This document shows positions 1 to 59,054 of a DNA stretch of 64,000 nt, in pieces. The first letter of the stretch is position 1. Each line of letters starts with the position of its first letter. Under the pieces are notes generated by a model. That model ran no database searches. It was given only the letters and a program-made list of their open reading frames with translations, and had not been told where the DNA came from. The translations under genes and the position numbers were made by a program. The stretch covers positions 186,001-250,000 of the forward strand of contig NIVC01000741.1 of NCBI GenBank assembly GCA_002269645.1, in the 5' to 3' direction. This DNA comes from Macrostomum lignano. Lineage: Eukaryota.

Positions 1-50
1 CGTGTTTTTGTTATCGTCCGCCAAAAATTGCAATAGTTGACTCTGTTAAA
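1..50 (+). mobile_element. 3' end of an LTR of the same Gypsy family as 38213-42598, inserted just downstream of the Polinton polB
   Basis: Bases 1-50 (cgtgtttttgttatcgtccgccaaaaa...gttgactctgttaaa) align with the reverse complement of the LTR start at 38213 (cgtgattttgtttcgcccgctaaaaagttgactctgttaaa). No PBS follows, so this is a 3' or solo LTR. Confidence 0.75.
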
Positions 51-89
51 TAAACCTAACCTCCACCTCCTAAACCCAACCTCAACCTC

Positions 90-3000
90 CTAAACCCAAT
101 CTCCTAAACCTAATCTCCAGTGCCCGAACGGTAGACTGTTAATGTTGTCATCAAAAATGAATCTCTTGTTATCTGCACCTGACAGTCCAATCTTATTTTT
201 CTGAATTGTGTGAATAATGTGGTTTTTAGATTGTAGCTTTGAGAACTCATGTGATGTCTTTTTGTTACAATTCAAGGCGTCTCTGTATTCAGCTTCATTA
301 ATTTCCTTCCTAACCACACGTTTCGGAATTCCCTTTGATTTTTTAATTGGGTCTGACGACTCACATTTTACAAAATAGGACTTTGCTCTCAACCCAATGA
401 ATTCAGTGATTATGTCACCAGCAATCTCGTCCTTCATTTTCCCAATCACTTTCTTGTTAGTAGCGTCAAACACTTGATCGCCATTCTGTGTCCTGAAAGA
501 TTCATCATACTCAGACAAGTCAAACAAATCTTTTTGCTGCAGCATGTCCTGATAAATGTTTGAATGTCCATAATAAAACTGTCTGTGTCAGTGTACAAGA
601 GTTTCATTTTATCCTTGTACTGCTGCTTCATGCCATAGAAGAACTGGTACATCAGACGTTTTGATTCGTCGAGAACAGTGACACCTGTATAGATCGGCTT
701 GCGCAGCGTCACCTTGGTTTTGTAAAATATGATCACACCTAAGTAGCTATTAAAGATATGGAGTTCTTTGAATGTTGGCTTTGACATATTTGCCTGAATA
801 ACAGCAGGCTCTGATGAGGTAACAAGTTTCAGGTTTGTTCTTTTCCGCTCATTCTCAAGAGTCTTGCCATAGACAGAGTTGTTGGCTAACTTAAAGAGGT
901 TCTTGTCAAAGTCGTTGGTTGCTTTGGTCCTAAACTGGGTGTTCTTATCAATGTAGGGTTTCATCCACGCGTCCTCTGTAAATGTAAGAGCCCTGTGAAC
1001 TATGGTGACCCTACAACCAAGTGAGATAAAATACTGAAGCAGTTTGTAATGGATTTTGTAACGTGTTTTGTTGTTTAGATTCTGTGTTAGTTTCTCTGTA
1101 TGTTCTTTTTCTGTTCCTGACAGGTGCCAAGTTCCATTATTATCATTGGGAGTTTCGATTATTTTCGGGCACTTAATATTCTCTGGGAAGGGTGGAAAAT
1201 CAGAGAAAAAGTCGTGAAGCTCTGGTGGAATGTAAACATCAACTTCATAAATGGCAGCCAATGAAAAGTCCTGTTTGAATTCTGATGAGGGTAGCCATCG
1301 AAAATCTCTAACTGGAAGATCTTGACTCATCGCCCACCCGTAGAGATTATTAGCGTCCAAGTAAGTAATGTAGTTTGAGGGCTGCTCCTTATTGTAAGAT
1401 CCAATGTAGGGGTTGTTTGCTTTTGCATATCTATGGGTGCAAATTGAGATTCCCCCTCGCTTTGACGATTCGACAAAATTGTACATGTCAATGTCTGTAA
1501 GAAGTTCAATGTACCAATCTGGATCTTGATCCCATTTCATTTTAAGCAAAGATTCCCAGCTAGTGGCAGGCAGAGACACATAATGTGCTGGATCGAGGCC
1601 ATATGCTGTGTACCAGGTGTATCTGAAGGTTTCAAACACATCGGCCAGCAGAAACACATCTGTGAAGAGGTAAAGCAGGTGATACTGGAAGAAGTTTTGA
1701 CAATTAAAGTAATTATAGACATGCTTCGCGTGCTCATAGTCTTTGTCAGAGATTCCAGAGTCTGTTAGCTTTGAAAAGAACTTCTCCTGTGGTGGTAAAC
1801 CTTCTTCAAATACGTGATACCCAGTAATATTTTCATAGGGGTAGAAGCCTTTGGTTCTCAGGAGTTTAAATGATTCATCACTGTTGTTAATTTTACTTGC
1901 AAACATCTTTGTATATGTACATTGTTCATCTTTTAGATTCTTGCTTAGTTCGTCTAGACTGGCAGCTAGAAATTGATATGAATCCTTCAGTCTTATTTTA
2001 CCTGTACCCGAATTATCCTGTTTAATATCAACACACTTAAACTTCTCCTTGTTCTCTGCGATGCAATCAAGGTGTATGTCTGGAATCATGCCAATTTTTT
2101 CAACTATTAAATGCATGTCATAGTTCTTTGCGTTGTGACAAAATATCGTTAGATCATGAATGTTCGATTATAGCTTTAGATTACAGGTGTTATGCGCTGC
2201 ACCTCTAAATTTCCCAGTAAAGTGGCAGTGGTCCCTAACGGTGGGGTTTTTAACATCAGTGCAAGTTAAATGTTTCCTGCAGATGTGGCAATGAGTTGCT
2301 GATAGGAAATTACGTTCATCCTCCTCAGTCATCATTATTGGAACAGGTTGAAGGGTGCTAATCACTTTTTGCAACTCTAACATTCTGGCAATAAACTGCT
2401 CCACACACTGCTCTCCAAAGAAATAATTATACTCAACAAGTCCTTTTGTATTAATAAAGGCATATGCTACTGAATTGGGGACATGTTTTTGAGTTTGAGT
2501 TTGTTTTTGAGTTTGAGTTTGTTTTTGAGTTTGTTTTTGTGTTTCCGGCATGATTGAGCATTCGAAATCAGCATATACAACAAATGGGAGCTTCTCCATC
2601 TTGTGATAGTTCTTAAACCGGAGATATTTCTCTTCAGCTGAAGGAAGAGAGCAGTTAGTGGGGTGATCCTCGCATGATAATTCATGCTCTGTTAGTTTTT
2701 CAAAGCGTTCAGGTCCACTGTAATGCTTAAGGCACAAGCGGCAGATGGCAACAGCCTCGTGATGATTATTCAACTGCTTGTGAATGAGTCTTGAAAGATC
2801 TTTAATCCAAACATAGTGAGCCTCCTCTAGTAAATTACCAATCACTAGAAGATCCACCTCAATCCGCCTTTTCCCCTCAGGATCTAAAACGTCTTTGCTA
2901 CATCTGACCAGTTGAACTATCTCAGTTTTTTCACTCCACTCAAAGACTGTGATTCTAATTTTGTTATTAAACACTTCTTCTAGCTTTGGGATCTGAGAAA

Positions 3001-3943
3001 TCGCCAAGCCTCCTTTGTCAAACCTGATTCCCTTCTTTTCGCATTCGATGAGATAGTAGTTGAAATAATTTTGATAATTTGAGGTTCTTTCAGGGTGGTG
3101 AGGTACACTAATAAGTGCAGAAAGAACTGCCCATAGAGCACAGCAATTGTCTTTATTTTTAACATTTATGCAAGCTTTTTTGCCGGCTAGCTTATGCGGG
3201 AGCTCTATATAAGAGGAGGCTTTAAGTGGGTCATATTTCATGACCATGACAGTCGCTCTTTGAATCCCTCCCACGACCCATCCGGAACCTCTGGATGTAA
3301 ACGCTTCAATTTTCTTAGTGACATCTTGAAGGAAAGGATCCAGTGTGTCAGTAGGGGTGAATGGCTTCGATTTTGTTGTCATGTAATACTCGAGATGCTC
3401 AGTGGGTTTCGCAGGCATGTAAAACGCAATCTTGAATGATATCTGTAGTTTAAAGGTTTTGCGTGTTTTGAGTGTGTGATCAACAACTGATTGGATGCTG
3501 TCTTTATAGTCGTAGATGTTTGCGGTGGTATCCTTAATTGGGATTGTGTACTCTATGTAATGTTCTGTAAACTTCCTCTGTGCAAAATTAATCTCTTCAA
3601 TGGCAAGCTCCGACTCTTTTAAATGGATTAATTGCTCTAATTTCTCTTGTTCCTGCTTATTTTGTGGGTACTTTGCTTTTTCACCAGTGAGAGTTTCGTA
3701 TTTGTTAACTAAGTTGCGACTCCTCTCTTGGTGTTCCTTTGCAGAATTTTTTATAGGCGCATACTGGTTGGATTCTAATTGATTGATGATTTCCAACTGT
3801 TTTTCATAGCTTCCCAGGTGACCAGGGTCTGTGTTAAACGTTTGTTTACATGCTTCTCTTAGTAAATTACTTTTGTCTTGAAATAAGACGCCTTTTGAAA
3901 AATATTTGTTGACTAAATCTCTTGCTGGATTGGCTTTTGGCAT
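90..3943 (-). pseudogene. polB: Protein-primed family B DNA polymerase (about 1280 codons), disrupted by an in-frame TAA at 2168-2170 and a frameshift near 556-562
   Basis: Read through, the ORFs 2168..3943, 446..2116 and 90..545 give: a papain/vOTU-like segment (KDNCCALWAV...HYVWIKDL), ExoI VYADFEC, an endonuclease VII-like zinc module (CHIC...RDHCH...HNTCN), ExoII HNAKNYD right after the stop, and polymerase motifs DANNLYG, KLANNSVYGK, YTDTDS and LRAKSY. Confidence 0.93.
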
Positions 3944-4067
3944 TTTTTTCTCTAAAATAAAAAAAAATTTTGAGGGTGACCACCCTGATAGAAAAGTTGA
4001 ACTGTTTCTACATCCTATCAGTAGTATTAGGTTTATGAAGCTGGATAAAGTGGGGTTTTAAACCTCA

Positions 4068-4526
4068 TCACATGCGCATTATTGTAAACCCAGCATTGTG
4101 CAGTGTCATGATGGCTTTGACAATGTCAGACTTGCTTACAGAATTTTCATGCTCAAAATCATCACGATCGGGGCAGCCCTCAGGGCAACCATCTCCTGCC
4201 TTAATTGTTATACCTTTATCTCTTGCAATCTTTTGCAATTCTAGCTGGTGGGCTCTATCACTCCCAGCTTTAACAGCAGTTGCTACACCTCCAGCTACAC
4301 CACCTGCGGCACTTACAGCGCCTGCAATGATCGGAATAAGAGCTGCTAATGGTAGGATTCCTCCTGACTTTTCATCTGTGATACTGTGTCTTTGCTCATT
4401 ACACTCAACTATTTGCTGTGTGGGATCAACCTTAACTTTGATACCTTTAATTGAAATAAGACCTGGTTTCTTTGATTCAATGATTTTATTGAGTTTATTG
4501 ATGGTTCTGGTTTCAATCTTTGTCAT
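4068..4526 (-). CDS. Small Polinton protein with an adenovirus pX(mu)-like hydrophobic segment
   Basis: SGG-ILPLAALIPIIAGAVSAAGGVAGGVATAV resembles the adenoviral pX precursor motif GG-(F/I)LP-LIP-IAAAIGA; flanked by integrase and polB. Confidence 0.6.
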   Translation of the reverse strand: MTKIETRTINKLNKIIESKKPGLISIKGIKVKVDPTQQIVECNEQRHSITDEKSGGILPLAALIPIIAGAVSAAGGVAGGVATAVKAGSDRAHQLELQKIARDKGITIKAGDGCPEGCPDRDDFEHENSVSKSDIVKAIMTLHNAGFTIMRM

Positions 4527-4543
4527 TTTTTTATTTTAATATT

Positions 4544-5581
4544 TTAATTAATTTCCGTGTCAGCTGGTATCACTAGGAGTTCAGCTCTAGTGAATGACCG
4601 TGTGGGGGATTTAGGGTTAAAGGCCTGAGATAAAAAGTAATAGTCACTGGAGTCGGAGGTAAAATGTCTGTCTATTTTATGTACATCAAGGCTGAAGTAT
4701 GGATCTGTAGCTCTTCTTTTGGTGTCTTTCTCTAGCTCTCCAGGTAGATATAAAAAGCGTAGAAACTCAGAGTTTGTCAGTATGTATGGTGATTCAACTC
4801 CTGGAAGCTTAGGGTAGTTCGAGGTGTGTTTTGTGTTGTGTGTGTTGTGTGGGGTTGTCGTGTTGTTGTCTGTTTTATGAGATGCCTTAAGTTCGACAGT
4901 GTCTTGTTTAATTGCATGGGACGGTTTCAATCCAGTCATACGTGTGACTTCATTGTTCAGTTGCTCTATAACAGTGGGGAGCCGGTCTGTCCATTTTGAA
5001 TAGTACTGACCACTTTTTAGTTTCAGCTCCTCAGCTGTCTGCTTAGTGAATAGCCTCTTGGCTAGAGTTAGATTGAATCTCTCAACGTACGCTTGGTCTC
5101 TGTGCAAGTTTGTTCTGCCATAGCGAATCTCTGTATTGTGCTTTTCCATAAGGGATTTCACTGCACCCATGAATTCCTTACCCGGGTCGGTCATGAACAT
5201 TTCAGGGTAACTAAGGGGTGAGTTTTTATAAATATCTTGCAGTGCGCTGGCAACAACCTCTGACTTCTTCGTCTTGAGTGGGCGAGCTTCCTTATATCTG
5301 GAAGCAACGTCTGTAATTGTAAGAGCATACTTGTAGCCCGAGTCATTGGGGAGAAACAGAAGATCTGCTTGGTGCGCCTCATTAGGTTTATAAATACTGA
5401 AATGGGGCCTTTCAAATTTTACTGGTGGGAAATAGACTTGAAAGACAGCCTGCTTAGAGAGCCATTTTTCTACTGTAGCTTTTGGTTCCTTACTCAGCTC
5501 CATGAGTTTACTAACGGCATTTTTGCCTACAAAGAATCCTTTGTCGCTGTAGTAGAGTTTTTTAAGTTTCTGATCTGTCAT
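4544..5581 (-). CDS. Retroviral-type (rve) DDE integrase of the Polinton, 345 aa, intact
   Basis: HQADLL, TITDVASRY, MTDPGKEF and QAYVERFNLTL give the D,D,E triad typical of Polinton integrases. Confidence 0.93.
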   Translation of the reverse strand: MTDQKLKKLYYSDKGFFVGKNAVSKLMELSKEPKATVEKWLSKQAVFQVYFPPVKFERPHFSIYKPNEAHQADLLFLPNDSGYKYALTITDVASRYKEARPLKTKKSEVVASALQDIYKNSPLSYPEMFMTDPGKEFMGAVKSLMEKHNTEIRYGRTNLHRDQAYVERFNLTLAKRLFTKQTAEELKLKSGQYYSKWTDRLPTVIEQLNNEVTRMTGLKPSHAIKQDTVELKASHKTDNNTTTPHNTHNTKHTSNYPKLPGVESPYILTNSEFLRFLYLPGELEKDTKRRATDPYFSLDVHKIDRHFTSDSSDYYFLSQAFNPKSPTRSFTRAELLVIPADTEIN

Positions 5582-5611
5582 TTATTTAAAAAGAAAATTT
5601 TAAATAAAATA

Positions 5612-6112
5612 ATGCAGCGCTCTGGTGGTAAAATAGATTCACATGGACTGATAGAAAAGCTTCCTCATCCAAACAAAGGCTGGACACTTCCCGGCTATAA
5701 ATATTGCGGGCCTTTGAATCCACTTGAAATACAGTTAGATACAAACGATAATCCAAATCCTGGGCATGAGCCTGTGAACGAGCTAGACTCTGTGTGCATG
5801 TGGCACGACGTTAAATATAGAGATTTTCCTGAGGAGAAGAATCGCTGGGACAAAGAAATGCTTAAGAGACTAGACAATATAGGGGCTTCAAGCGGATTTC
5901 GTGAGTCGATCGCTCGGAAGCTAGTTAAAGCTGTTATTTTTAGTAAGGCAAAACTGGGATTAGGAATGGGCGCCGAGGGTGGGTGCTTGGGGAGAGAGGG
6001 CTGGTGCACGAGGAGAGAGGGCGGAGGCTCAGGAGCGGGGTTTGTTTTGTGCGCACCTCACAAGGTACTAGGAAGACTGCTGAAAGAGCTGGGGGTAGAG
6101 AGAGCAGAATGA
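5612..6112 (+). CDS. Parvovirus VP1u-type phospholipase A2 domain protein (PLA2X-like), 166 aa
   Basis: LPGYKYCGPLN Ca-binding-loop-like motif and NELDSVCMWHDVKY catalytic HD. The first plausible ATG is at 5612; the track's 5369 start overlaps the integrase antisense. Confidence 0.85.
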   Translation: MQRSGGKIDSHGLIEKLPHPNKGWTLPGYKYCGPLNPLEIQLDTNDNPNPGHEPVNELDSVCMWHDVKYRDFPEEKNRWDKEMLKRLDNIGASSGFRESIARKLVKAVIFSKAKLGLGMGAEGGCLGREGWCTRREGGGSGAGFVLCAPHKVLGRLLKELGVERAE

Positions 6113-6214
6113 TTCAAGTGCCTCAAGTGGTTGGAAAGAAAACCTTGCGCGAAAGCTTGTAAAGGGGATTATATGGGAGTGGGAGAGACGGGATAGGGTG
6201 GTCTAATTCCGGCG

Positions 6215-6310
6215 TATTTATAGCAACGAAAAGGGTTTTCCTTCTAGAATTCTGCTTCTAGAATATTCTAGAATAAAAAGAGAATCCCACGCCTTCCAAA
6301 GCTATAAAAG
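6215..6310. promoter_or_regulatory. Heat-shock-element cluster flanked by divergent TATA boxes
   Basis: cTTCtaGAAtaTTCtaGAAt at 6255-6274 (four alternating nGAAn pentamers); cTTCtaGAAt at 6241-6250; TATAAAAG on + at 6303-6310; TATAAATA on - at 6222-6215. Confidence 0.7.
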
Positions 6311-6392
6311 CGAATCATAATCCTCGTCTGGGGGTTATGCGCTAAATTCACTATCAAGTCTATCGACAACGATTGCCACAATTTTCACAACA

Positions 6393-7172
6393 ATGAGCAA
6401 CATTGAGAAAACAATCGAGAAATTGAAGGAGCTGCATGCGAAAAGTGATATTTCGCTTGCGGAGGCGTTAGCGTCTTGGTCGCCGGAGGAGCTGAAGAAG
6501 TTTAAGGAGAAACTTGACAAGCTAGAAGAAGATGGAAAAAACAAGAGTAAAAAACATAAAAGGAGACCAATGAATCGCAATGCCGACAACGAGCAGGAGA
6601 CATTCCTACGAAATCTCAAACGGAGGCTCACTGATCTGGCCGCAAAAGGTCTTCGCATTGACGGTGGCCTTCTTAAGACGCTGCTGTCCAGCCTAGGACA
6701 AGATCTACGGAATAAATCTAGCGAAGAGGTCCGCAGTATATTTGTGACCATTTCGGACTGTCTGCGGCCGCTAGACAACTTAAAAAGCCTAGGAATGTTC
6801 GAGCAGGCTCGGGCAATCGTCTTCAGTACGAAAACTAGGCCTATCGAGAAGATTGCGGAGGAATTCGGATTGACCGTCCGAAAGGCGAAAGAGTATGTAG
6901 CGTACTACGAGCTAGCGATGCGTTACATAGCTCTGCCATTTACTGGATATTGCCTTACAACGATTTTGAAATACAAGAAGGCAATCGTCGATTTTGCCAA
7001 GGACGACGAAGAACTTCGTCTGGCCTTGGAAGTTGAGCATGAGACGTTCGAATACGTAAACGAAGAAGGCGTCACAGCCGAGATTGCCCTGACCAATTGG
7101 GCCGTGGACGTTCGAGACGACCCAGGTGACGAAGTAGATGACCCAGGTGACGGAGTAGATGTCATGGAGTGA
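6393..7172 (+). CDS. Orphan 259-aa protein with a basic NLS-like patch, an HTH-like segment and an acidic tail
   Basis: Uninterrupted ORF with TATA upstream and AATAAA at 7241-7246; KNKSKKHKRRP, TRPIEKIAEEFGLTVRKAKEYVAYY, DDPGDEVDDPGDGVDVME. No family recognised. Confidence 0.7.
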   Translation: MSNIEKTIEKLKELHAKSDISLAEALASWSPEELKKFKEKLDKLEEDGKNKSKKHKRRPMNRNADNEQETFLRNLKRRLTDLAAKGLRIDGGLLKTLLSSLGQDLRNKSSEEVRSIFVTISDCLRPLDNLKSLGMFEQARAIVFSTKTRPIEKIAEEFGLTVRKAKEYVAYYELAMRYIALPFTGYCLTTILKYKKAIVDFAKDDEELRLALEVEHETFEYVNEEGVTAEIALTNWAVDVRDDPGDEVDDPGDGVDVME

Positions 7173-7332
7173 AGAAGTGACTACTACATGGCCGTCTGTT
7201 GTGTTTGAAATGGTGATTTATATAAATTGATTAGTCGTTAAATAAAAGCCTGCTTATAATTATTAAAATAAATAATAACTGAATCAACAAAATTCGGTTT
7301 TTTTTGTTAATTGGAATCTGACTCGACACGTT

Positions 7333-7890
7333 TTTTTTACCTACTACTAGTAGAAGTAATAGTTCAGAGTGAATATCTTTAGCGACAGAAAATTTCAATT
7401 TACGAAGCTTCGTAAACTCTTTAATGAAAAAACAGAAAATACTAAAATATGTTTTTAACCTACTGCTAGTAGAAGTAGTAGTTTAGAGTGAATATCTTTA
7501 GCGACAGAAAATTTCAATTTACGAAGCTTCGTAAACTCTTTAATGAAAAAACAGAAAATACTAAAATATGTTTTTAACCTACTGCTAGTAGAAGTAGTAG
7601 TTTAGAGTGAATATCTTTAGCGATAGAAAATTTCAATTTACGAAGCTTCGTAAACTCTTTAATGAAAAAACAGAAAATACTAAAATATGTTTTTAACCTA
7701 CTGCTAGTAGAAGTAGTAGTTTAGAGTGAATATCTTTAGCGATAGAAAATTTCAATTTACGAAGCTTCGTAAACTCTTTAATGAAAAAACAGAAAATACT
7801 AAAATATGTTTTTAACCTACTGCTAGTAGAAGTAGTAGTTTAGAGTGAATATCTTTAGCGATAGAAAATTTCAATTTACGAAGCTTCGTA
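7333..7890. repeat. Tandem array of about 4.7 x 119-bp units, each with the palindrome TTTACGAAGCTTCGTAAA
   Basis: tacgaagcttcgta starts at 7401, 7520, 7639, 7758 and 7877 (period 119); units nearly identical; the last palindrome is truncated. Confidence 0.95.
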
Positions 7891-8074
7891 AGCATACAAA
7901 AGACAATCAAGATTCAAAGAAAATTTAGATTTTTTTCAAAGGGTAAGGACCCTGCGCTGATGATTTAAAGTTTTAGGGATCTGGTAGCACGTTGCGGATT
8001 GAATGTGGGGAGAAGAATTCAGATTATTTTCTGATTGTTTCGAAGATGTTATGGGTGGATGTTGGTGGATTATG

Positions 8075-8380
8075 TAGGACACCTGCTATGCTCTGATTCT
8101 GTCGTGGAGGAAGGAGGATAGGTTAGGAGGATTATGGATGACGTTTTGTGAGCGAGTTTTTCTGATTCTGTCAGGGATAATATGGATGGATTTAGGAGGA
8201 TTATGTTCGAAGTTTTCGGAACAAGTAGGACACCTGTTATGCTCTGATTCTGTCAGGGATAATATGGATGGATTTAATGGGATTATGGAGGACGTTTTGT
8301 GAGCGAGTGCGACCCCCCTTTTTTTCTGATTCTGTCAGGGATAATATGGATGGATTTAGGTGGATTATGGAGGACGTGAA
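8075..8380. repeat. Imperfect subterminal direct repeats
   Basis: ctgattctgtcagggataatatggatggattta occurs three times (about 8162, 8244, 8326) plus a partial copy; gacgttttgtgagcgagt twice; gtaggacacctg twice. Confidence 0.8.
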
Positions 8381-9060
8381 AAATTTTGTCCCAGAAGCCC
8401 CCTCATGCCTTCTACTATGTCTAGTCTAACCTAGTTCTAATCTAGTATAGTTTTTAATCTAGCCTAGTTCTAATCTAGTCCAGGATTGTCTATAGACTGG
8501 ACTTGAAATTCCGACTGGAAAAAACCCTGCGGGAAACTTCAACGAGAAAAACTCTCGCGGGGAAATCTCTGCGGGAAACTTCGGCGAGGGGAGGCGTAGA
8601 TGGTTGGCCATACCGGTGTGATCTAGAGAGACAATCAACTCTTAATGGCGAAAAAGGCGTACACTCTGTCAAGTTCATGCAGATGAATTATATTGTACAT
8701 GTAAAATCCAAAAATGAAACTCACCAAACTGACACAGACCAGTAGAAGAAAATTCCACCTCTTTTTCATAATATCAGACGCGGTGCTGCAGTTTGCGTTC
8801 ACTTATACCCTAAATGAGGGGTTCAAAAGTCGGTTTTTTCTTGCTTAAATGTCCAGGCCACAAGTGCGCGCAGCATTTGTAAAACAATGCAGCATTGTAC
8901 GCTTGTAATCAAGATATTTGTAGGCAAATTTCTTGTGCATGAAATGAAGGATTATTATTTAAACCACTTTAAAGCTCACTTTCAGGGAGGTTATAGACAG
9001 ATTTTATTTTGTGGGATTTTATTGATCACTTTCCCGGACATATTGCAAGGATTATATAGA

Positions 9061-9161
9061 AGATAATGCATGGCTTTTAGGGTTGTATTTGTTTAAATCC
9101 CAAAAGTCAAAGGCTCCTGGGATTTAAGATAATACAACCCATAAAAAGGCATGCTTTATCT
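9061..9161. repeat. Imperfect inverted repeat (small MITE-like hairpin)
   Basis: About 40-bp arms: agataatgcatgg...ttaaatccc and gggatttaa...catgctttatct. Confidence 0.55.
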
Positions 9162-9644
9162 CACTTAAATTCTTTCCTTTTCTGGGATTTGACCTAATAA
9201 ATCCCAGAACATGTGAAATTTGTCTATGGCACTGCATTGCGGGGTCAAGGGGGTCAAGGGGCCACACTTCCTTGTGGAAGTGTGGGAACAGAGTCCCCAC
9301 ATATCTAATTTTTTTATTTGAAAGTTGTGAAAATAATATTTGTTGTTTATGGTTTCAATCTAGATGCTAGTCTGTGTTTCCACTTTTTCTAATGGTTTTA
9401 ATTTTCTTATCTTTTTAAGAGTTTCTGTCTGAAATTATTTGGAGAGGACCTATAAATCACATAAAATGATAAATTACATCTTTAAATTTTCGTCTATGGT
9501 GAAAAAAAAGCTTGCAAATTTGACTGAAAGGGATTTAACATTACTTAAATACTTGTATGCATGAGTTTTTTATTTATTGCAGTTAGCCATAGACAATTGC
9601 AGCAGGCAGGCTGCTATGCATTTTACCCCATTTCAATACACTTA

Positions 9645-9884
9645 TACACCTTTTCACATTCAATTTTGATCCAAGTCTAGTTCTAAAAAAACTACTGGAA
9701 ATTCAATTTAGACAATTCAGACTGGGATAATGCCTACAGAAAATCAATAGAAACAAACCCCAGTTCAAAACATTCTGCCACTAAAGCAAGGTTTAGCCAT
9801 AGACAAAATTATCCCTAGTCTAAATTGAATTTCTAGTAGTTTTTTAGAACTGGACTTTAATAAAATTGAACATGAAAAGGTGTA
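9645..9884. mobile_element. MITE-like foldback element; a related sequence lies at about 28514-28640
   Basis: About 70-bp imperfect inverted arms (tacacctttt...caatttagac / gtctaaattg...aaaaggtgta); one arm recurs near 28.5 kb. Confidence 0.55.
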
Positions 9885-11007
9885 CTAACTATAACTAGAG
9901 ACATCGATAGATAAAAAATTACTTGTATATTAAGTCTTTGTTCTGTGTATGGTTAAAATTCATGTAAAATATTTTTCAAAGTGCAAGCCTAGTAAGAAAG
10001 ATGATAGCATAGTCTTGGCCAGGTTTTAAGCAAGGCTCTTTCACACTGCCATCAAATGAGACCATGCAAATTTCTTGTGATTATACAACTTGTTTATCAA
10101 TTTTGATTCTTTTGTGCATTATTTGTATGATTTGTTAGCTCATTTGATGGCAGTGTCAATGAACCTCTATACCCAAGAATAGTAATGAGACTTTGGCCTT
10201 GGTCCTTGGTTTAAACCCTAGATATTATGGACTAATACATGCATTAGATAGGGCAAAACCTAGGATACCTGGGAAACTACTAACCAATCAACCAACCAAA
10301 AATAATTATCTCTAGTCAAAAAGTATAATAATAGTCAATATATAGTAACATATTTAGTATAGTTGAATTTTAGCATATTGATTATAATAATATGAATACT
10401 ATTGTATTCTTCTGTTTCTTACTCCTAGTGTAACTATCATCAGTTCTAAAGGTTCCTAATCATTTTGAAATTTTATATTTTATCAGTCATTAACTATAAG
10501 TAAATTAATATATACTATGAAAGAGTTTTATATAAAGAAAATATAAAGAATGACTATTTTATATTAATTATAAAAATAAAAGAACTAAGCATTTTTTGAA
10601 ACAAGAATAAGAAATGGTCCTATGCCAATGATATATTCTTAACATTGACATAGGACCATTTATATTAAATATATATTTTTGTAGCTTCCCAAATTAACAT
10701 GGCCATAAGGTTTAATAAAAATGTAGTTTAATAACTTTTATAAAGCCAAAAGGTTATTTTTATCTTAAAATCTATTTAACTGTAATTCTTTTTTAATAAT
10801 TTTTATTGCCTTTATATTTATTTACTTTTTTTCTAACTTCTTTTTTTTCTTTTTTCCTTGTTTGCTTCCTTTCTATATGTATTGTGACTTGTCATATTGT
10901 TTTTATAGGCCTACTTCTGGAAAGGTTAGGCCATTTTTTAAATCAATCATATACACATACATACCAACAAATTTGTACAAACCATGTTAGTATATATAGA
11001 ATTTGAT

Positions 11008-12828
11008 TGATAGCCATGTTTTTTGGTGCCTGTGCTTTTTGATGCCTAGATTATAAAATAGAATTTGGATACAAAAAGATAGATAGTGAGCTCTAATTTA
11101 GCAATAATTGCTTTGTAGTATTTCATTTTTTGAAAAAGTAAGGTATTTTTGTTATTAATTTTGTTAAGCTGACCAGCTGTTGTAATTTTCTAAAAATGTC
11201 TTTTATTTCATATAAATTTTTGTCTTGACTCAACTTCTTAAGAAAAAATATGATTGTATAACTTTAGAAATCTATATACTAGCCCTAAAAATGTCAATAC
11301 TAAAATGGATTTGTCACATTTCATAATTTCAATAAAAACTATATATGGAGGCATTGTAGCATAGTTGATGGATTTCATCTTTGTCTAAAACTTAGTCTTC
11401 TTAATCTTAGCACACATGCTAAGCAGCCATTGTATATATATAAGATATAGGCATATAGCAAATGCTTGCAAATAAATCAAAGAGATTTTTTTTAATTTAA
11501 GAAATATGCCAGTTTAACAAAATGGATACTGCTTTATTGGGATGGATTACTTTTTTTATTTAGGCATCATAAACTGAGGCACCAAAAAGTAAACTGGCTA
11601 TAAAGATGGTCTCTAACTGTTTTTACCTTGGCTGCCTCTCTAGTAGATTGTCTAAGGGTTGTGCGCAATCTGATTGGCCTAGCTCTGACTAGCCCAATTT
11701 TCTAAGGGTCCACCCTAGAGGGGCTGTGCCCATTCTAAAAATAACTTTTTTATTCTAATTAGCTTTTTGGCCCTCGGCCTTGGTTTAGGGGGTTGTACAT
11801 GGCATAAGTGTGTAATCTAGACTGCAATGTGGCTAGAATAGGACTTGAGCCCCTCGGTCGTACCTGCCCTATAGGAAAGAATGACCATTCACAAAGGTGT
11901 ATGGTTAGAGCCCAGTAGCATGCTAGCCCTGAGGCTAAGCCTGGGTTTTTAGGGTTCAAGTGCTCCTCACATTGTTTTTATTGTTTTTAATCCCATTATT
12001 AGGGGCCTATACACACTGGTAGCACCTGCCATTTCAACTAGCAATAAGCCACCTTTAACCAACCTGAAGTTTTGAGCTCTGCCTTGCCTGGTCCATCTTG
12101 CTTTGTCCTCGGTTCTATTTGCTAGGCTCCTCTAGAAGCTCCCTGCCTGTGTTTTGGCTCTTATCCTAACAGTGGACTAGCATCCCAGGGAATGAGTTTG
12201 TCCTAAATTGGGGATACTGGCTGAGTCCAAATCCTTTTATGCCTTGTGCCCTTTTCCCAACCCCTTGGCCCGGCCTCCAATCTAAAGCTAGATAGGTGAT
12301 ACCCTTGTGGCTTGCAGCCCTATAGGAGGGTTTTTTGCAAGGTTTACCTCTTGATAGGAGACTCACCCTTGGAAACAAGCCTTCCAGCCAAATACCAAAT
12401 TCCTAACTATTGCTTTTTCCATAGACCTCTGGGGTTTCCCCACTCTTAGACCACTCTAAGTAGCAAACTAAGCTTTTCGAACTCTTTTTTGCATGCACTC
12501 CCTAAGACTTGTCTGCTGGGTGGTGGCCTGGGTAGACTTGGTCCTAGCACTGTCCTTGATTCTACTTTTGGGTTGGTAATGCCTTAGTCCATAGGCTTAG
12601 GTTAGTAATCATTCATATTCACACCTATCCTTAACTAAGATATTAGGGTCTAACCAACTAGTTTAGTAGGTATCTCGGGCTTAGGCCCCTAGAAGTGCCT
12701 ATCAGCAGCAGAGCCCCTCCCAGGGCTAATCTGCGAATAGCAACTGCTCTCACCCCCATTTAACAATAAATTGGCACACCAAAATGCTAGGCACCAAAAA
12801 GCACAGGCGCCAAAAAGCATGGAAATCC
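11008..12828. mobile_element. Decayed non-autonomous TIR transposon
   Basis: 11014-11049 and 12787-12822 are 36-bp inverted repeats with 3 mismatches; a possible decayed 8-bp TSD (atttgatt/ctttgaat). Confidence 0.5.
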
Positions 12829-16459: not shown

Positions 16460-17965
16460 ACAACAAAATACGCGACCCTGCAAGCAGAGGTCACAGTTAA
16501 AGCAGGGGGCGTCAGATGGCGCGCCGCAGAGCCTGGGAGCGAACAAAGTCCGCTCCGTTGGCAGTGTCGAGCGCCCCAGCGCCGCACAGCAGGCAGTCCA
16601 CGTATCGACGGGTCGGGCCTGACCCCGCCTGAACGGACCCTGCAAGGTGAGCAGCAGGACGTCCTGAACAGGTTGGGGGCAGTAGCCCTCGGCCCGGATC
16701 ACGTGGCTCGCCAGTTGAAGTCGCCGCCGGCGCAGGATGGTGGACGGGCGCTGCAGCTTGGCCCGATCGTACAGGGCCTCGGTCCCGACGCTCTCGTCAG
16801 CTCGAAAGGCCGCACGGAGCAGCGCTGAGTGCGCCGAGTCCAGCTGCCGCTCTAGCGTAGCCGTCAGCGTCCACGTCTCGTCCACGGACGCTTTCGACCA
16901 CAGCCGAGCCCTTTGGCGGTCGGGCAGCGCTTCGGACTGGAGGACGACTCGGATCGAACAAAAGGCCGCCCAGGCAAGTCCTCTGCGCCGCCGGAGGTCC
17001 TCTTCCACGTGGGGCACCAGACCGCCGAGGTAGGTGAACCGCTGGCAGCGTGCGAGCCTGGTCGTCTGCCCGTCTGCGCCGCGGCACGTCAGGTCCGATG
17101 GGATGTCGGCCGGCAAGGTCAGCACCTCGGTCTTCAGCGTGTTGACAATCACACCAACGCTGCGATGCCACCTCGACCAGCCTGTCAATCTGGTACTGGG
17201 CGCCTTAAACGGACGAGGACAGGAGGGCGAGGTCGTCGGCGTAGCCAAGCACGCTTAGGCGCTTTTCGCCGTGGCGGCGACCGATGCGTCTGCGCAGCAG
17301 GAAGCGGTCATTAGCAGAGGGGAGTGCGGTCCGAAGCACCCAGTCCAGCAGCAGCACTAAGAGGAACGGCGCTAGCGTATCGCCCTGCAGAACTCCTGAT
17401 GAAGTATCGAACAGGTCAGACAGGCCGTCCGCCGTCACCACAGCAGCTCGAGTATCGCGATACAGTGACATGATACTCGTAGCGTCGATTAGCTGCTGCG
17501 GGACTCGGTAGGCTCAAAGGACGAAGGGGAGCGCGGCTTTCAGCACCGAGTCAAACGCCTTTCAAAAGTCAACGAAGACAATGATCAGCGTAGACTGGCG
17601 GATGCGCGCCTCCTCGATGACCCGGCAGAGTGCGAGGATCTGTCACTGTACCGCGTTGCGGCCGGAATCCATTCTGCTCGTACCGCAGGTACGGGTCTAG
17701 CAACGACTGCAGACGATCGAGCAGCAGCCGGTTGAAGAGCTTCGCGGTGCAGGACATCAGCGAGATCCCGCGGTGGTCTTCTTTCCGCGTTGTCCCTGCC
17801 TTCTTCGGTATCGGCACGATGTGCGTGACGGTAAACTCGGTGGGCGCAGGAGCGCCATCGAGCACGCGGTTCATGACGCCTGTGACCTGGGAGGCCACAC
17901 AGCAGAGCCGCAACGCTTCGACCGGGACTTCGTCGGGGCTGAGCGCCTTGCCACCTGATGATTGC
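16460..17965 (-). mobile_element. 5'-truncated, frameshifted non-LTR retrotransposon (RTE-like reverse transcriptase) in the EXOSC8 intron
   Basis: HRGISLMSCTAKLFNR, EQNGFRPQRGT, GVLQGDTLAPFL, YADDLALL and FTYLG spread over three frames; no endonuclease domain. Confidence 0.85.
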
Positions 17966-18146
17966 CGAGCAAACAGCACAACAGAACTTCACCAGCTCAG
18001 AACCTTACATCACAAGCTCTTAATGCCCCATCTGAAAAATATTGGCGCTCTTATATGTTTCGAGCCTGTAAAATATTCGCTCCGGCCCATCCGCAGCCAG
18101 AATGCCTTCAGAACACAGAAAACAGCTCAAAGCTAGAAATTCGCAC

Positions 18147-18527
18147 CTGAACGGTGAGCGCCTGCGCCGTGTCGCTGGGCGGCCCGGGCCGGAACGCTCT
18201 CGAACAGACGGGCGGCAGGTCGGCATTTAACACGACGCCCGCCGCCAGCAGCGGATGGCAGCCCGCGGCGGCGGCGGCGGTTCCGGCAGCCGAGAGCTCC
18301 ACAACGCTGGCCGACACTCCGCAGGCGAATTTCGTGTTGCCGAGCACCGAAATCGCGCTGCCAGCCGCGCCGCCTAGGCAACCGGGGGTCACGTGACCGA
18401 CACGGCTGGACGGAGAGGCTGCGGTGGCGGCCAGCCGCAGCCTGTTGGCCAGCAGCGCCTTGGCAAACTCGGCGGGGACGGCCAGATTCCAGTCTGCCGC
18501 ATCGTCAGTCAGCATCGGCTGCGACAT
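18147..18527 (-). CDS. EXOSC8: Exosome complex component RRP43, exon 1
   Basis: GSAISVLGNTKFACGV and NADLPPVCSRAFRPGPPSDTAQ match RRP43 (GSALVKLGNT, NVDLPPLCSSRFRSGPP); donor CAG|gtgcga at 18146; joins exon 2 in frame to give 312 aa. Confidence 0.88.
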
Positions 18528-19445: not shown

Positions 19446-19781
19446 GTGCAGAAAAGTCAGCAGTCGGTCACTCAGACAGCAGCAGACGGTCACTCAGACA
19501 GTCAGCAGTCGGTCACTCAGACAGCAGCAGACGGTCACTCAGACAGTCAGCAGTTGGTCACTCAGACAGTCAGCAGTCGGTCACTCAGTCAGCAGTCGGT
19601 CACTCGGGCAGCAGCAGTCGGTCACTCAGACAGTCAGCAGTCGGTCACTCAGACAGTCAGCAGTCGGTCACTCAGACAGTCAGCAGTCGGTCACTCAGAC
19701 AGTCAGCAGTCGGTCACTCAGACAGTCAGCAGTCGGTCACTCAGACAGTCAGCAGTCGGTCACTCGGGCAGCAGCAGTCGG
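19446..19781. repeat. Degenerate 20-23-bp minisatellite (cagcagtcggtcactcagacagt) overlapping the Clock stop codon
   Basis: Direct inspection; the unit nearest the gene supplies the TGA at 19760-19762. Confidence 0.9.
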
Positions 19782-20518
19782 TCAGCACCGTCGTTAGTTA
19801 CAGAATGAGCGGCAGCCGCGGTGGCCTCAGCCGTCGCAGGTGTCGTGGCAGCGGCCGACAGCATTGCAAGCTTTCTGCTGACATCCTCCAGTTCTTCCTG
19901 GTTGCGCCTAACAGCGGCTGACAGCTGGCTGTAGCGGGCGCACAGCTGGGCGTAGAGCTCCGCCTGCTGCGGGCTGAGCGACTCGGCGGCGGACAGACCG
20001 ACATGCGCGGCTGCAGCTGCAGCGGCGGCGGCCGCGGCGGCAGCATTGTCGGCATCGTTGCTGGTGTCGTCGTCGTCCCAGATGCTGCCACCTTCCGCGG
20101 CGGAGTCTGTTGGCACCGCCGAAGACGAGGAGGCCGTCCGTGAGGCCTCAGGCGCAGCGGAAACCGCGGCAGCAACGGCAGAGCCAGTAGCGGCAGCGTC
20201 GGCGGCAGCGGCGCGGTGGTCGGCAGAGCCGTAGACGCAGGTGTAGGACTCAGGCCGGCCGCTCCACTGGGCATAGTTGGCGTGGGCGGACATGGACAGC
20301 CACAGCCAGTCGCCGCTGGGCAGGACGTGACGGCAGGCGTGGCAGACGGCGAGGCCGTCGCGCTTCAGACGCTCGAGAAAGCCGGCAACCGTTTCCAGGT
20401 CGGCCGGGTGGCACAGGTCGAATCCGGAGCGGCCAATCAGGGCGCTGGAGCGCTGGCCAATCACAAGCGAGCAGCGCGGATCCACTTCCGTGAAGCGCCA
20501 GGCTAGGCTAAGGCGGGC
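19760..20518 (-). CDS. Clock: Clock/NPAS2-like bHLH-PAS factor, exon 4 (PAS-B and exon-19-like coiled coil)
   Basis: RLSLAWRF...SGFDLCHPADL...WLWL...YAQWSGRPE matches CLOCK PAS-B (RHSLEWKF, SGYDYYHVDDL, YHQWNSRPE); QLSAAVRRNQEELEDVSRKL resembles the CLOCK exon-19 helix; acceptor tttcaacag, phase 0. Confidence 0.82.
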   Translation of the reverse strand, partial: ARLSLAWRFTEVDPRCSLVIGQRSSALIGRSGFDLCHPADLETVAGFLERLKRDGLAVCHACRHVLPSGDWLWLSMSAHANYAQWSGRPESYTCVYGSADHRAAAADAAATGSAVAAAVSAAPEASRTASSSSAVPTDSAAEGGSIWDDDDTSNDADNAAAAAAAAAAAAAHVGLSAAESLSPQQAELYAQLCARYSQLSAAVRRNQEELEDVSRKLAMLSAAATTPATAEATAAAAHSVTNDGADRLLLPE

Positions 20519-20658
20519 CTGTTGAAATGGAGAGCACAGCATCATCTTGGTTGACATTAAAGTGGAAGCCGGTACCAGACAAATTGAATGAAGGCGGCTA
20601 TCAGGCTGAGCTAAAAGGGAGGGGGGTCAGCGGAGGCGGGGTCAAGCTGAGCTCAAAC

Positions 20659-23050: not shown

Positions 23051-23318
23051 GCCTCTCAGTCAGAATTCGGGTGTCGTCTATGGCCCAACCTTTTTATTAT
23101 AGTGTTTGTTACAGGCAAAAAACAATTGCCTGGTGATTTTAGTTTTTTATCTGAATATGAATACGACCTCTTTGCAACGCACCAAATTGGACGCAGTAAA
23201 AACCAATTAGGAAGAAAGAAGGCATAGTAAATCTCTGTCAAGCATTCCACAAATTAGACAAACGCAAAATCCAAGCAGACTAACTAAACCTCCGTATCTA
23301 CAAAGCAGCGCCACCCAC

Positions 23319-23607
23319 CGTCCGCATGCAGTCGCAGGAACTGCAGCGCGTCCTTGAGAATCTTGGCCTTGTCGTTGCGCTTATTCCTGCTGCCAATGAG
23401 GACGGCCAGCTCATTCACCAGGCCGTTGAACAGGTCCCTTCGTTTTTTCTCGTTTAGATTTCGACTGCGCCGCTTTGAGTCGCCGCCACCGCCGCTGAGC
23501 ATCGCGTCGCTAAGGTCGCTCTCGCCAGCCAGGGAGGCGGAGGCGGCAGAGCCGGATGCGCTGACTGAGTGGCCGCTGCCGCCAAGGCGCAACGCGTAGT
23601 CAGACAT
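23319..23607 (-). CDS. Clock: Clock-like, exon 1 (bHLH); spliced product 517 aa
   Basis: KRRSRNLNEKKRRDLFNGLVNELAVLI...NDKAKILKDALQFLRLH matches the CLOCK bHLH; donor G|gtgggt, phase 1. Confidence 0.88.
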
Positions 23608-50822: not shown

Positions 50823-51738
50823 AGCATTGACATTTCAGTAATTCTCTCTAAGAGTCATTATAGCACTGCTACAGCATTATAGCGATTTCCTGCAAGCCTC
50901 GACATTGTAGGGATTCCCAAATGAATCTCTTAACTTCGACATGAAGCTTCTTTTATTTTTTACATTACGCTTTTTTTATCAGCAATCCCTCCCCTGAGGA
51001 GGCATCAAATAATGTAATAAAAAGTTTTCAATAAACTTTACATGATTGTTTACATGTAGCTTCTGACTTTAGCTTTGAAATCTCATTTATACCCCCGTGA
51101 GCCTTGACATCTCAGCTATTCCCCCCGTAAGCCTTGACATGTCAGCGATGGCCTCCATAAACCTTGAAATCTGAAAAATCCCCCGTTAACCTTGAAACCC
51201 GATAAAATATAACCCTCAACCCACACCTGACCTAAACCTAACTTTAACCCAACCTAAAGCCTTGAATCTCAGCAATTCTTCTCCCCTAAGCCTTGACATT
51301 TTAGTGATTCCTTCTTTAAGAATCACAGCACTATAACGATTCCCTCCAAGCTTTGACATCATAGCAATTCCCAAATGAATCTTTTAACTTCGACATGACT
51401 TTTCTTTTATGTATACATAGTGCTACTTTTATTTTTTACATGACTCTTCTACTATCAGCGACCCCCCCGTGGCGAGCCAACAAAGAATGTAATAAAAAAA
51501 TTGAGTAAAGTACATGAACTTTGAAGTAGCTTCTGACTTTTGCTTTGACATCTCAGCAACCCCCCCCCCCGTAATCTCAGTTATTCTCTGAGAGCCTTGA
51601 CGTCTCAGTTTTTCTCCCCAGCACAGCATTATAGCTGCATTTATTTTTACATGACACCCTTCATGTCTGACATGACGCTTCTTTTATTCTACCATGATGC
51701 TTCTTCATTTTTTAAATGACACTTTCCTTAGTTTTTAA

Positions 51739-54700: not shown

Positions 54701-55253
54701 AATGACGCTTCTACGATTTTTTACATGACGCTTCTATGATTGTTTACATGACGCTTCTATGATTTTTTACATGACGCTTCTATGATTTTTACATGACGCT
54801 TCTATGATTTTTTACATGACGCTTCTATGATTTTTTACATGACGCTTCTATGATTTTTACATGACGCTTCTATGATTTTTTACATGACGCTTCTATGATT
54901 GTTTACATGACGCTTCTATGATTGTTTACATGACGCATCTATGATTGTTTACCTGACGCATCTATGATTTTTATATGAAGCTTCTATGATTTTTACATGT
55001 CGCTTCTATGATTTTTACATGACGCTTCTATGATTTTTTACATGACGCTTCTATGATTGTTTACATGACGCTTCTATGATTGTTTACATGACGCTTCTAT
55101 GATTGTTTACATGACGCATCTATGATTGTTTACCTGACGCATCTATGATTTTTATATGACGCTTCTATGATTTTTACATGACGCTTCTATGATTGTTTAC
55201 ATGACGCTTCTATGATTGTTTACATGACGCTTCTATGATTTTTTACATGACGC
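51739..55253. repeat. Satellite A, 22-23-bp unit (catgacgcttctatgattttta / ...attgttta)
   Basis: Direct inspection, about 150 units. Confidence 0.97.
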
Positions 55254-58652: not shown

Positions 58653-58811
58653 TAATTTTTTTTGTCTTGGCGTTAAAAGGCTTTAATTAAAAAAACTCTA
58701 CTCTCTAAAAATTCGAACCATCGTCCCTGCATTTAGCAGTTTAGTCTGTTTACCTCTAGGCTAGCTCTCATGAATTTTAGTCATTACCCCTAAATAGAAA
58801 ATATTCCCAAG

Positions 58812-59015
58812 ACAGCAAGCATCCCCCAGTAGCAAGCATCCCCTAATACTCCTAGCAAGCATCCACCCAGATAGCAAGCATCTGCAGATAGCAAGCATCT
58901 TGCAGATAGCAAGCATCTTGCAGATAGCAAGCATACCCCAAATAATGTAGAAGCATCCTTCCAGATAGCAAGCATCCTGCACATAGCAAGAATCCCTAAA
59001 TAGCAAGCATCCCTG
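58812..59015. repeat. Satellite B, 17-18-bp unit (agatagcaagcatcccc), degenerate array
   Basis: Direct inspection. Confidence 0.85.
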
Positions 59016-59054
59016 GATAGAAATAATCCTATACATGTAGCCAAGCTTATCAAG

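What the first reader, a model, noticed from the sequence alone, without database searches (positions are those of the whole stretch)
6393..7172. Orphan NLS + HTH-like + acidic-tail protein directly downstream of the HSE: a possible immediate-early regulator
Seen: a helical N-terminus, basic patch KSKKHKRRP, HTH-like IEKIAEEFGLTVRKAKEYV, and an acidic tail made by a 21-nt duplication; the ORF has its own TATA and polyA signal and looks more CpG-rich than the core genes. Inference: a DNA-binding activator or origin-binding protein acquired as a module; its natural target would be the palindromic array 160 bp downstream.
Basis: inference. Interest (0 to 1): 0.7.

Follow-up and report, generated by a model that had tools for sequence, protein, structure and literature searches.

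The report
Polinton cargo gene with heat-shock promoter
A virus-like Polinton element carries, in a variable stretch near its end, a gene with a textbook heat-shock promoter whose product is predicted to be a two-subunit DNA-binding protein; it may be a stress switch for the element, but its expression and its DNA target are untested.

Summary
The ORF (6393-7172, 259 aa) is real but not an orphan: 7 relatives at 24-31% identity were found, and all named ones are Macrostomum lignano hypothetical proteins. It lies between PLA2X and the end of a Polinton, in a roughly 2-kb cassette (promoter, ORF, 119-bp array) that appears in only a minority of copies. Its CpG content and codon usage differ from the core genes. 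The promoter has the window's only perfect four-pentamer heat-shock element, 29 bp before a TATA box. An alignment-based model (pLDDT 78) confirms a helix-turn-helix. Its closest solved folds are ParB/KorB/SopB DNA-binding domains, but only weakly (Z 4-5), with no CTPase domain and no sequence support. A homodimer is predicted (0.85 against 0.00 for controls), leaving the recognition helices free. Best reading: a heat-inducible dimeric DNA-binding regulator carried as cargo. The acidic tail is family-wide, not made by the duplication. Binding to the array, activator function and expression of this copy are not shown. The palindrome also resembles a weak heat-shock element, and an HTH-deleting variant exists in DNA. 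My searches found no report of heat-shock elements in Polintons.

The parts
6393..7172 (+). ORF, 259 aa (P0001): predicted homodimeric HTH protein of a small, undescribed family
6255..6274 (.). Perfect four-pentamer heat-shock element (nTTCn-nGAAn-nTTCn-nGAAn)
   Evidence: only one in 64 kb; 1 of 5000 local shuffles
6241..6250 (.). Two further perfect pentamers, 4 nt upstream and out of register (14-nt direct repeat)
   Evidence: (D13)
6303..6309 (+). TATA box, 29 bp after the HSE and 90 bp before the ATG
6543..6569 (+). Basic patch aa 51-59, NLS-like, in a disordered loop; the most basic 10-mer lies at a similar place in 4 of 5 full-length relatives
   Evidence: NLS function is inference
6720..6830 (+). 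Long helix aa 110-146: predicted antiparallel dimer interface centred near residue 127; its C-terminal end is the first helix of the HTH
6843..6923 (+). Helix-turn-helix aa 151-177; recognition helix 162-177 is not among the named dimer contacts
6924..7034 (+). Helical block aa 178-214, the most conserved part of the family (Y186 and I198 invariant); completes the ParB-like helical domain
7113..7169 (+). Disordered acidic tail aa 241-259, lengthened by a 21-nt tandem duplication (7115-7161)
7241..7246 (+). AATAAA polyadenylation signal, 69 nt after the stop
7333..7891 (.). 4.7 x 119-bp tandem array, 98% identical; 18-bp palindrome at 7399, 7518, 7637 and 7756, 17 nt of it at 7875
5958..7920 (.). 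Approximate variable cassette (PLA2X tail, promoter, ORF, array); other copies diverge at both edges
   Evidence: loose ends at 5958 (X3), 7918 (X3) and 7922 (X12); low depth inside
6848..7007 (+). 160 nt skipped in a variant seen in all 4 laid runs, DNA runs included; covers aa 152-205 (HTH and most of the conserved block); not GT..AG; 5-nt microhomology
5633..6112 (+). PLA2X-type gene (parvovirus-like phospholipase A2 domain)
   Evidence: PF08398, E 8.2e-14
4544..5581 (-). rve integrase of the Polinton
   Evidence: PF00665, E 3e-09
4068..4526 (-). Adenovirus pX-like core protein
   Evidence: PF05829, E 6.7e-07
90..3943 (-). Protein-primed PolB region, in three separate ORFs in this copy (broken)
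   Evidence: PF03175, E 1.8e-15 on 446-2116
7920..8416 (.). High-depth terminal region, probably the TIR; exact end tentative
   Evidence: the other end is not in the window

Best explanation
The ORF is an accessory (cargo) gene in the variable slot between the integrase/PLA2X genes and the end of an animal Polinton. It encodes a nuclear, homodimeric helix-turn-helix DNA-binding regulator. Proposed working: (1) host heat-shock factor binds the perfect HSE next to the TATA box and switches the gene on under heat or proteotoxic stress (site shown; induction inferred from HSE biology). (2) The protein enters the nucleus through the basic loop (inferred). (3) Two copies pair through the long antiparallel helix and present two recognition helices (predicted), as needed for a palindromic site. 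(4) It then regulates transcription, most simply as an activator through its acidic tail (inferred, untested), at the adjoining palindrome array that travels in the same cassette (about 0.35) or at other sites. My odds: real gene 0.95, HTH dimer that binds DNA 0.75, heat-inducible 0.75.
For: Family of 7 relatives, 5 nearly full length, E down to 1.3e-19. AF2 on 13 sequences: pLDDT 77.7, pTM 0.63, HTH blocks 94-96. Fold matches for aa ~130-215 are led by ParB-type DNA-binding domains: KorB Z 5.0, rmsd 2.9, 77 aligned, with 8 of 50 rows ParB-family; 12 of the top 13 rows in the second look, Z 4.0-4.9; Spo0J is first in Foldseek, E 0.9. Homodimer score 0.85 against best of 3 controls 0.00, runs agree in at least 97% of contacts, pLDDT at least 79. 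That mark was reached by 21 of 30 microbial homodimers and 0 of 23 monomers; in eukaryotes by 17 of 29 homodimers (animals 7 of 16), 1 of 7 without an older solved relative, and 0 of 30 monomers. HSE beyond chance. In M. lignano, four HSE-bearing LTR families rose more than 250-fold on heating and HSE mutation abolished a reporter's response (PMC12801592, abstract and passages). Foreign codon usage: r -0.18 to 0.08 to four core ORFs, against 0.45-0.59 among them. ORF and array lie inside the same low-depth stretch with shared edges. Nematode Mavericks have a high-GC, poorly conserved cargo region between TIR and integrase (bioRxiv 10.1101/2022.07.12.499685, passages).
Against: No fold match is significant: no Foldseek E<=0.001, and the aligner warns that Z under 8 may be a common arrangement. 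Profile-profile comparison with SopB/ParB gives probability 0.8% and 0.2%. The same helical arrangement matches Raf1, a protein-binding chaperone (Z 3.8-4.0, rmsd 2.6-2.9). The HTH is not the best conserved block (mean BLOSUM 0.84 against 1.78 for aa 178-214), and the protein's net charge is -7. The ORF is far shallower than the core genes in all 4 runs, and a variant lacking the HTH is present in all 4. In PMC12801592, 2 of 6 HSE-bearing LTR families were not induced. The genomic context of every relative is unknown, so HSE and array co-occurrence is untested. A complex pass may come from likeness to solved dimers.
Confidence: 0.55

Rival explanations
1. The array is a downstream enhancer for a host factor, for example heat-shock factor. 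The ORF product binds DNA elsewhere (element promoters, termini or host genes) or acts as a repressor or anti-silencer, as KorB and VirB do in bacteria (their roles recalled; structures named).
For: Each palindrome reads as a three-pentamer HSE with one mismatch; 9 of the 16 such sites in 1-8450 come from the array. The HSE promoter and the array flank the same gene.
Against: One-mismatch sites are common (51 in the window), and the mismatch removes the G of an outer pentamer, so the site fails the canonical pattern used in PMC12801592. A predicted symmetric dimer beside a perfect palindrome fits self-binding.
Confidence: 0.2
2. Protein and array form a partition, tethering or origin module for the free form of the element, like SopB with sopC or a herpesvirus origin-binding protein with its repeat family (analogies recalled).
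For: ParB-type helical domain as the nearest fold; tandem palindromes right behind the gene and near the terminus; predicted dimer.
Against: No CTPase domain: matches to full ParB chains cover their DNA-binding part only, and the N-half is modelled as helices. No ParA-like ORF among the element ORFs scanned. Most copies seem to lack the module. Protein-primed replication starts at the termini (established knowledge), and a stress promoter suits a switch better than upkeep.
Confidence: 0.1
3. The helical domain does not bind DNA. The protein is a stress-induced dimeric protein binder, for example an antagonist of a host chaperone, silencing or death pathway.
For: Raf1 matches as well as several ParB rows. 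The most conserved residues lie after the HTH. Net charge is acidic. The start of the recognition helix differs between the two clades.
Against: HTH DNA-binding proteins dominate both fold lists. Position 163 is basic in 7 of 8 sequences, and R163-K164 is kept in all 4 of this clade. An NLS-like patch is kept in 4 of 5 full-length relatives. UniRef names one relative 'HTH psq-type domain-containing' (a source's label).
Confidence: 0.1
4. A passenger: a host or foreign heat-shock gene captured with its promoter and now decaying, with no role for the element.
For: Minority cassette, an HTH-deleting variant in all 4 runs, a broken polymerase in this copy, and host-like CpG.
Against: The ORF is intact and intronless with an intact promoter. 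No single-copy conserved host source was found. Relatives are themselves multi-copy in M. lignano (7 gene names in one 90% cluster), as mobile cargo would be.
Confidence: 0.08

Closest known systems
Maverick/Polinton accessory or cargo regions (nematode WASP/KRMA cargo, bioRxiv 10.1101/2022.07.12.499685; vertebrate accessory regions, PMC8097293; passages of both)
   Same: About 2-kb region of distinct composition and low conservation between the integrase and the terminus, carrying a non-core gene.
   Different: The cargo here is a predicted HTH dimer with its own HSE promoter and a palindrome array, not a protease or kinase.
HSE-driven transposons: M. lignano Ty3/Mdg4 LTR families, ONSEN, Helitron1_CE (PMC12801592, passages)
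   Same: Canonical HSE next to a TATA box in a mobile element, probably in the same group of hosts.
   Different: A DNA virus-like element; the HSE drives one accessory gene, not the whole element; induction is not shown here.
ParB/Spo0J/KorB/SopB/VirB helical DNA-binding domain
   Same: Nearest fold for aa ~130-215 in three fold searches; HTH aligns to HTH; palindromic repeats right behind the gene, as in sopB-sopC (recalled).
   Different: No CTPase domain, no ParA, no significant sequence similarity, weak Z (4-5); the predicted dimer forms through a helix before the HTH; eukaryotic promoter and poly(A) signal.
Baculovirus IE1 with hr enhancers (PMC2834656, PMC13513840; passages)
   Same: A viral regulator acting on AT-rich tandem units that each hold a palindrome; hrs act as enhancers and origins.
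   Different: No IE1 among the 50 listed viral fold matches; the ORF is less than half the size given for IE0 in the listing; one array beside the gene instead of dispersed hrs; function untested.

Membership tests
Polinton/Maverick (adintovirus-type) for the host element | Protein-primed PolB and rve integrase | tested here: met
   PF03175 E 1.8e-15 and PF00665 E 3e-09; PolB is in three ORFs
Polinton/Maverick (adintovirus-type) for the host element | PLA2X and pX-like virion accessory genes (PMC8502044, passages) | tested here: met
   PF08398 E 8.2e-14 and PF05829 E 6.7e-07
Polinton/Maverick (adintovirus-type) for the host element | Capsid, ATPase and protease genes; TIR pair; 6-bp TSD | not testable with these tools
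   The other arm is outside the window and no genome is held; no match of 1-9500 elsewhere in the window
Canonical heat-shock promoter | Three or more alternating nGAAn pentamers near a TATA box | tested here: met
   Four perfect pentamers at 6255-6274, TATA at 6303
Canonical heat-shock promoter | HSF binding and heat induction | not testable with these tools
   Needs heat-shock RNA or a reporter
HTH DNA-binding proteins | Three-helix HTH fold with the usual hydrophobic pattern | tested here: met
   Helices 110-146, 151-157, 162-177, pLDDT 88-96; A155 in 6 of 8, F/L158 in 8 of 8, L/I160 in 7 of 8; the turn glycine is only in this protein
HTH DNA-binding proteins | DNA binding | not testable with these tools
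   No protein-DNA prediction or assay available
ParB/Spo0J/KorB superfamily | N-terminal CTPase (ParB/Srx) domain | tested here: not met
   N-half modelled as helices; matches to full ParB chains cover chain residues ~117-212 only, bar one loose KorB fit at rmsd 7.6; no Pfam ParB hit in 8 members
ParB/Spo0J/KorB superfamily | ParB-type helical DNA-binding domain | tested here: inconclusive
   Best Z 5.0, rmsd 2.9, 77 aligned; consistent but under the level the tool calls trustworthy
ParB/Spo0J/KorB superfamily | Sequence homology | tested here: inconclusive
   hhalign probability 0.8% (3 sequences) and 0.2% (13 sequences), HTH only; both profiles are thin and SopB-biased
ParB/Spo0J/KorB superfamily | Partner ParA ATPase and binding to a parS-like site | not testable with these tools
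   None among 7 ORFs scanned, but half the element is missing; binding needs an assay
Baculovirus IE1/hr system | Tandem AT-rich units, each with a palindrome | tested here: met
   119-bp units, 28% GC, 18-bp palindrome
Baculovirus IE1/hr system | Protein homologous to IE1 | tested here: inconclusive
   Not among the listed viral fold matches, none of which is significant

The most novel reading that the evidence does not exclude
A stress switch for a Polinton: host heat-shock factor turns on a dimeric HTH protein with a ParB-like fold, which binds its own subterminal palindrome array as an enhancer or origin and wakes the element, possibly also cassette-less copies in trans. It would be a concrete candidate for the environmental trigger that Mavericks are hypothesised to need, and a further case of HSE capture by mobile DNA.
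Probability: 0.17. Interest if true: 0.82.

Novelty: new variant of a known kind. Interest (0 to 1): 0.52.

Why it matters
How integrated animal Polintons are switched on is open: the nematode study only hypothesises 'some environmental perturbation' (bioRxiv 10.1101/2022.07.12.499685, passage). This cassette offers a promoter, a protein and a candidate site that can each be tested, and heat-shock RNA-seq and reporter methods already exist for M. lignano (PMC12801592), where named relatives occur. It also defines an unannotated eukaryotic HTH family. The weight is limited because the cassette is optional, partly decayed, and shown only by sequence and prediction.

Tried and rejected
Word-seeded protein search with the single protein: 0 of 1552 candidates; with the alignment among longer proteins: 0 of 7995, weak evidence against fusions. 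No related loci in viral contigs (integrase query), metagenome contigs or phages, so the context of relatives stays unknown. Pfam, PHROGs and PDB sequence scans gave nothing above curated or usual thresholds; faint hints were HTH_60 E 0.066, HTH_9 E 0.11 and 'late transcriptional activator' phrog_836 E 0.18, all on P0002 or its near copy. ESM Atlas: unnamed clusters at 0.91 with recognition below the mark, not used. Single-sequence AF2 was poor (pLDDT 47.7). Expression: no RNA holder listed; the two guessed-RNA runs laid follow the DNA profile and cover flanks, so they say nothing on expression. The gene names Mlig000052 and Mlig020038 were in no main text and in no readable supplement of four papers; the heat-shock table uses another ID scheme, and the supplements of PMC5946080 could not be read, so expression data may exist unseen. 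Rfam: one chance-level hit, E 0.35. Sigma-70 scan at chance level. The 160-nt skip as an intron: rejected, not GT..AG and present in DNA. The cassette as an inserted transposon: no inverted or direct repeat at its edges. Earlier scan notes: nothing by sequence or place, and 8 word hits from other genomes that do not bear on this.

Full report
SETTING. The first 8.4 kb of the window are one arm of a Polinton/Maverick of the adintovirus type. Pfam gives protein-primed PolB (E 1.8e-15), a pX-like core protein (6.7e-07), rve integrase (3e-09) and a PLA2X-type phospholipase (8.2e-14); PLA2X is described as an adintovirus virion accessory gene in PMC8502044 (passages). The polymerase region is in three ORFs, so this copy looks defective. 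The other arm is outside the window and no genome is held. The host was not determined; all named relatives of the ORF are from Macrostomum lignano, so a related flatworm is my inference.

OBSERVATION. The ORF 6393-7172 encodes 259 aa. The basic patch is at aa 51-59, the HTH-like string at aa 151-169, TATAAAA at 6303 and AATAAA at 7241. The HSE at 6255-6274 has four perfect alternating pentamers, with two more just upstream. It is the only perfect site of three or more pentamers in 64 kb; a four-pentamer site appeared in 1 of 5000 shuffles of the intergenic stretch and 0.03 times per shuffled window over 60 shuffles. CpG O/E is 1.26 against 0.30-0.70 in six core ORFs. Codon usage is uncorrelated with four core ORFs (r -0.18 to 0.08), which correlate with each other at 0.45-0.59. 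The array of 4.7 x 119 bp starts 161 bp after the stop, with an 18-bp palindrome per unit. Two claims fail. The 21-nt duplication adds only about 7 residues to a region that is acidic anyway, and 6 of 8 relatives have a C-terminal acidic window. And the gene is not an orphan.

FAMILY. phmmer over 1.84 billion representatives found 7 proteins at E<=0.001, 3 of them at <=1e-10, at 24-31% identity; 5 span most of the query. A profile search added one more. Three of the 7, and the added one, are M. lignano proteins without a described function; 4 of the 7 are unnamed. One 90% cluster holds 7 gene names (Mlig000052 g1-g7) on different contigs, as mobile cargo would. The GenBank annotation of that assembly was built from assembled transcripts (PMC5730564, passages), so those relatives are probably transcribed; linking the locus tags to that annotation is my inference, and that set excluded transcripts overlapping annotated repeats, so their place in Polintons is not shown. 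A tree of 8 rows (P0006 and near duplicates left out) gives two clades at 100/99; the ORF is a long branch with P0002-P0004. No DNA around any relative could be fetched, so co-occurrence with an HSE or an array is untested.

STRUCTURE. With 13 aligned sequences AF2 gives pLDDT 77.7 and pTM 0.63: helices 61-85 and 91-100, a long helix 110-146, HTH helices 151-157 and 162-177, three short helices to 213, a hairpin 218-232, and disordered stretches at 49-59 and 241-259. No fold match is significant. The ranking is consistent, though: Spo0J leads Foldseek on PDB (E 0.9), KorB leads the wide search (Z 5.0, rmsd 2.9, 77 residues, model 134-211) with 8 of 50 rows from the ParB family, and 12 of the top 13 rows of the second look are ParB, KorB, SopB, VirB, Spo0J or Noc (Z 4.0-4.9; redundant entries, and not an independent search). 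The tool warns that such Z values may mean only a common arrangement, and Raf1, a protein-binding chaperone, matches at Z 3.8-4.0. Profile comparison with SopB/ParB pairs HTH with HTH but at probability 0.8% and 0.2%. There is no CTPase domain. So part of it is built like a ParB DNA-binding domain, but it should not be filed as a ParB. The best conserved block is aa 178-214, not the HTH.

DIMER. Two copies of aa 1-240 scored 0.85 against a best control of 0.00 (3 controls); the runs agree in at least 97% of contacts and pLDDT is at least 79 (the alignment was not used). The mark was reached by 21 of 30 microbial homodimers and 0 of 23 monomers; in eukaryotes by 17 of 29 homodimers (animals 7 of 16), by 1 of 7 without an older solved relative, and by 0 of 30 monomers, so a pass may reflect memory of like dimers. 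The interface is the antiparallel long helix centred near residue 127, and no residue of the recognition helix is named in it. A rough estimate from helix rise, not measured on coordinates, puts the two HTH domains about 40 A apart, near the 11 bp (about 37 A) between the palindrome half-site centres. This is compatible with binding and no more than that.

A MINORITY CASSETTE. Four runs were laid on 1-12000 at 90% likeness. Contig depth over the ORF is 6.2 in X12 (core 71-421, flanks 4.8-7.1), 20 in X11 (core 251-491, flanks 14-21.5), 4.6 in X17 (core 73-121) and 429 in X3 (flanks 37-189; core bins far higher). The tool warns that depth is no copy number, and more diverged versions would be missed, but the pattern is the same in all four. 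Loose ends at 5958 and at 7918-7922 mark where other copies diverge (only part of the loose-end table was shown). Promoter, ORF and array therefore travel together in a slot that most copies fill otherwise. This matches the 2-5 kb high-GC cargo region between TIR and integrase in nematode Mavericks (bioRxiv 10.1101/2022.07.12.499685, passages) and the accessory regions of vertebrate Mavericks (PMC8097293, passages). All four runs also show a variant that skips 6848-7007 (aa 152-205), so some cassette copies have lost the HTH. No RNA holder was listed, and expression of this copy is unknown.

MECHANISM. Shown: the ORF, its family, the HSE-TATA layout, the foreign composition and the cassette. 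Predicted: the HTH fold and the homodimer. Inferred: heat induction, nuclear import, DNA binding, activation by the acidic tail, and the target. Heat induction is plausible because four HSE-bearing LTR families of M. lignano rose more than 250-fold at 37 C and HSE mutation abolished a reporter's response, though 2 of 6 HSE-bearing families did not respond (PMC12801592: abstract, passages, supplement search and part 1 of 80 of table S2). I give 0.55 to a heat-inducible dimeric DNA-binding regulator carried as cargo, and about 0.35 to the array as its site. The main rival for the array is a host factor: each palindrome is a one-mismatch three-pentamer HSE, though such sites are common (51 in the window). 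A partition or origin module, a protein-binding role and a mere passenger are less likely. The closest working analogy is baculovirus IE1 on hr palindromes (PMC2834656, PMC13513840; passages), without evidence of homology.

NOVELTY. Cargo slots in Mavericks and HSE capture by transposons are both known. I found no report of an HSE or of a ParB-like HTH regulator in an animal Polinton: 'Polinton' with 'heat shock element' gave 1 paper, a plant review; 'Maverick', 'transposon', 'heat shock factor' and 'HSE' gave 0; 'Polinton', 'ParB' and 'helix-turn-helix' gave 3 papers on prokaryotic elements, seen as listings only; 'Macrostomum' with 'Polinton' gave 1 unrelated paper. The library lacks most subscription journals, and some supplements could not be read. 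A coral study found core polintovirus genes expressed in both heated and control samples and lists antirepressor-like accessory genes (PMC11131425, passages). Verdict: a new variant of a known kind, interest 0.52; the stress-switch reading has probability 0.17 and would deserve 0.82.

Noticed in passing
window 7341-7356 and the same place in each 119-bp unit; window 8409-8416: Each array unit holds ACT(A/G)CT followed by AGTAGAAG, which looks like two Maverick end motifs joined head to head; the same 8-mer is the reverse complement of the tentative element end. It occurs 12 times in the window, 5 of them in the array. May be chance.
   Followed up: partly
window 7399-7416: By eye, the 7-nt half-site of the array palindrome equals the outer right arm of the BmNPV hr palindrome printed in PMC13513840. 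Not tested against chance. The same half-site is, from recall, a posterior-Hox motif.
   Followed up: no
window 5958-6112: The cassette edge falls inside PLA2X, so this copy has its own glycine-rich PLA2X tail built on 21-nt repeats, while other copies continue differently.
   Followed up: partly
window 6272-6277: An AATAAA overlaps the last HSE pentamer and could be the poly(A) signal of PLA2X. A two-codon ATG-stop lies at 6337, near the expected start site.
   Followed up: no
window 90-3943: The polymerase region is in three ORFs, so this copy looks defective; the N-terminal 591-aa ORF ends in a weak endonuclease VII match (E 0.00044).
   Followed up: no
window 1-5600: Core Polinton genes are CpG-depleted (O/E about 0.5) while the GC-rich host stretches are near 1.0.
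   Followed up: no
window 19760-20557 and 23284-23607 (-): ORFs that read like PAS and bHLH exons of a host bHLH-PAS gene (by eye; not scanned).
   Followed up: no
window 16737-18527: Fragments that read like a non-LTR reverse transcriptase (by eye; not scanned).
   Followed up: no
window 51670-64000: Long 23-24-bp satellite arrays fill the last 12 kb.
   Followed up: no
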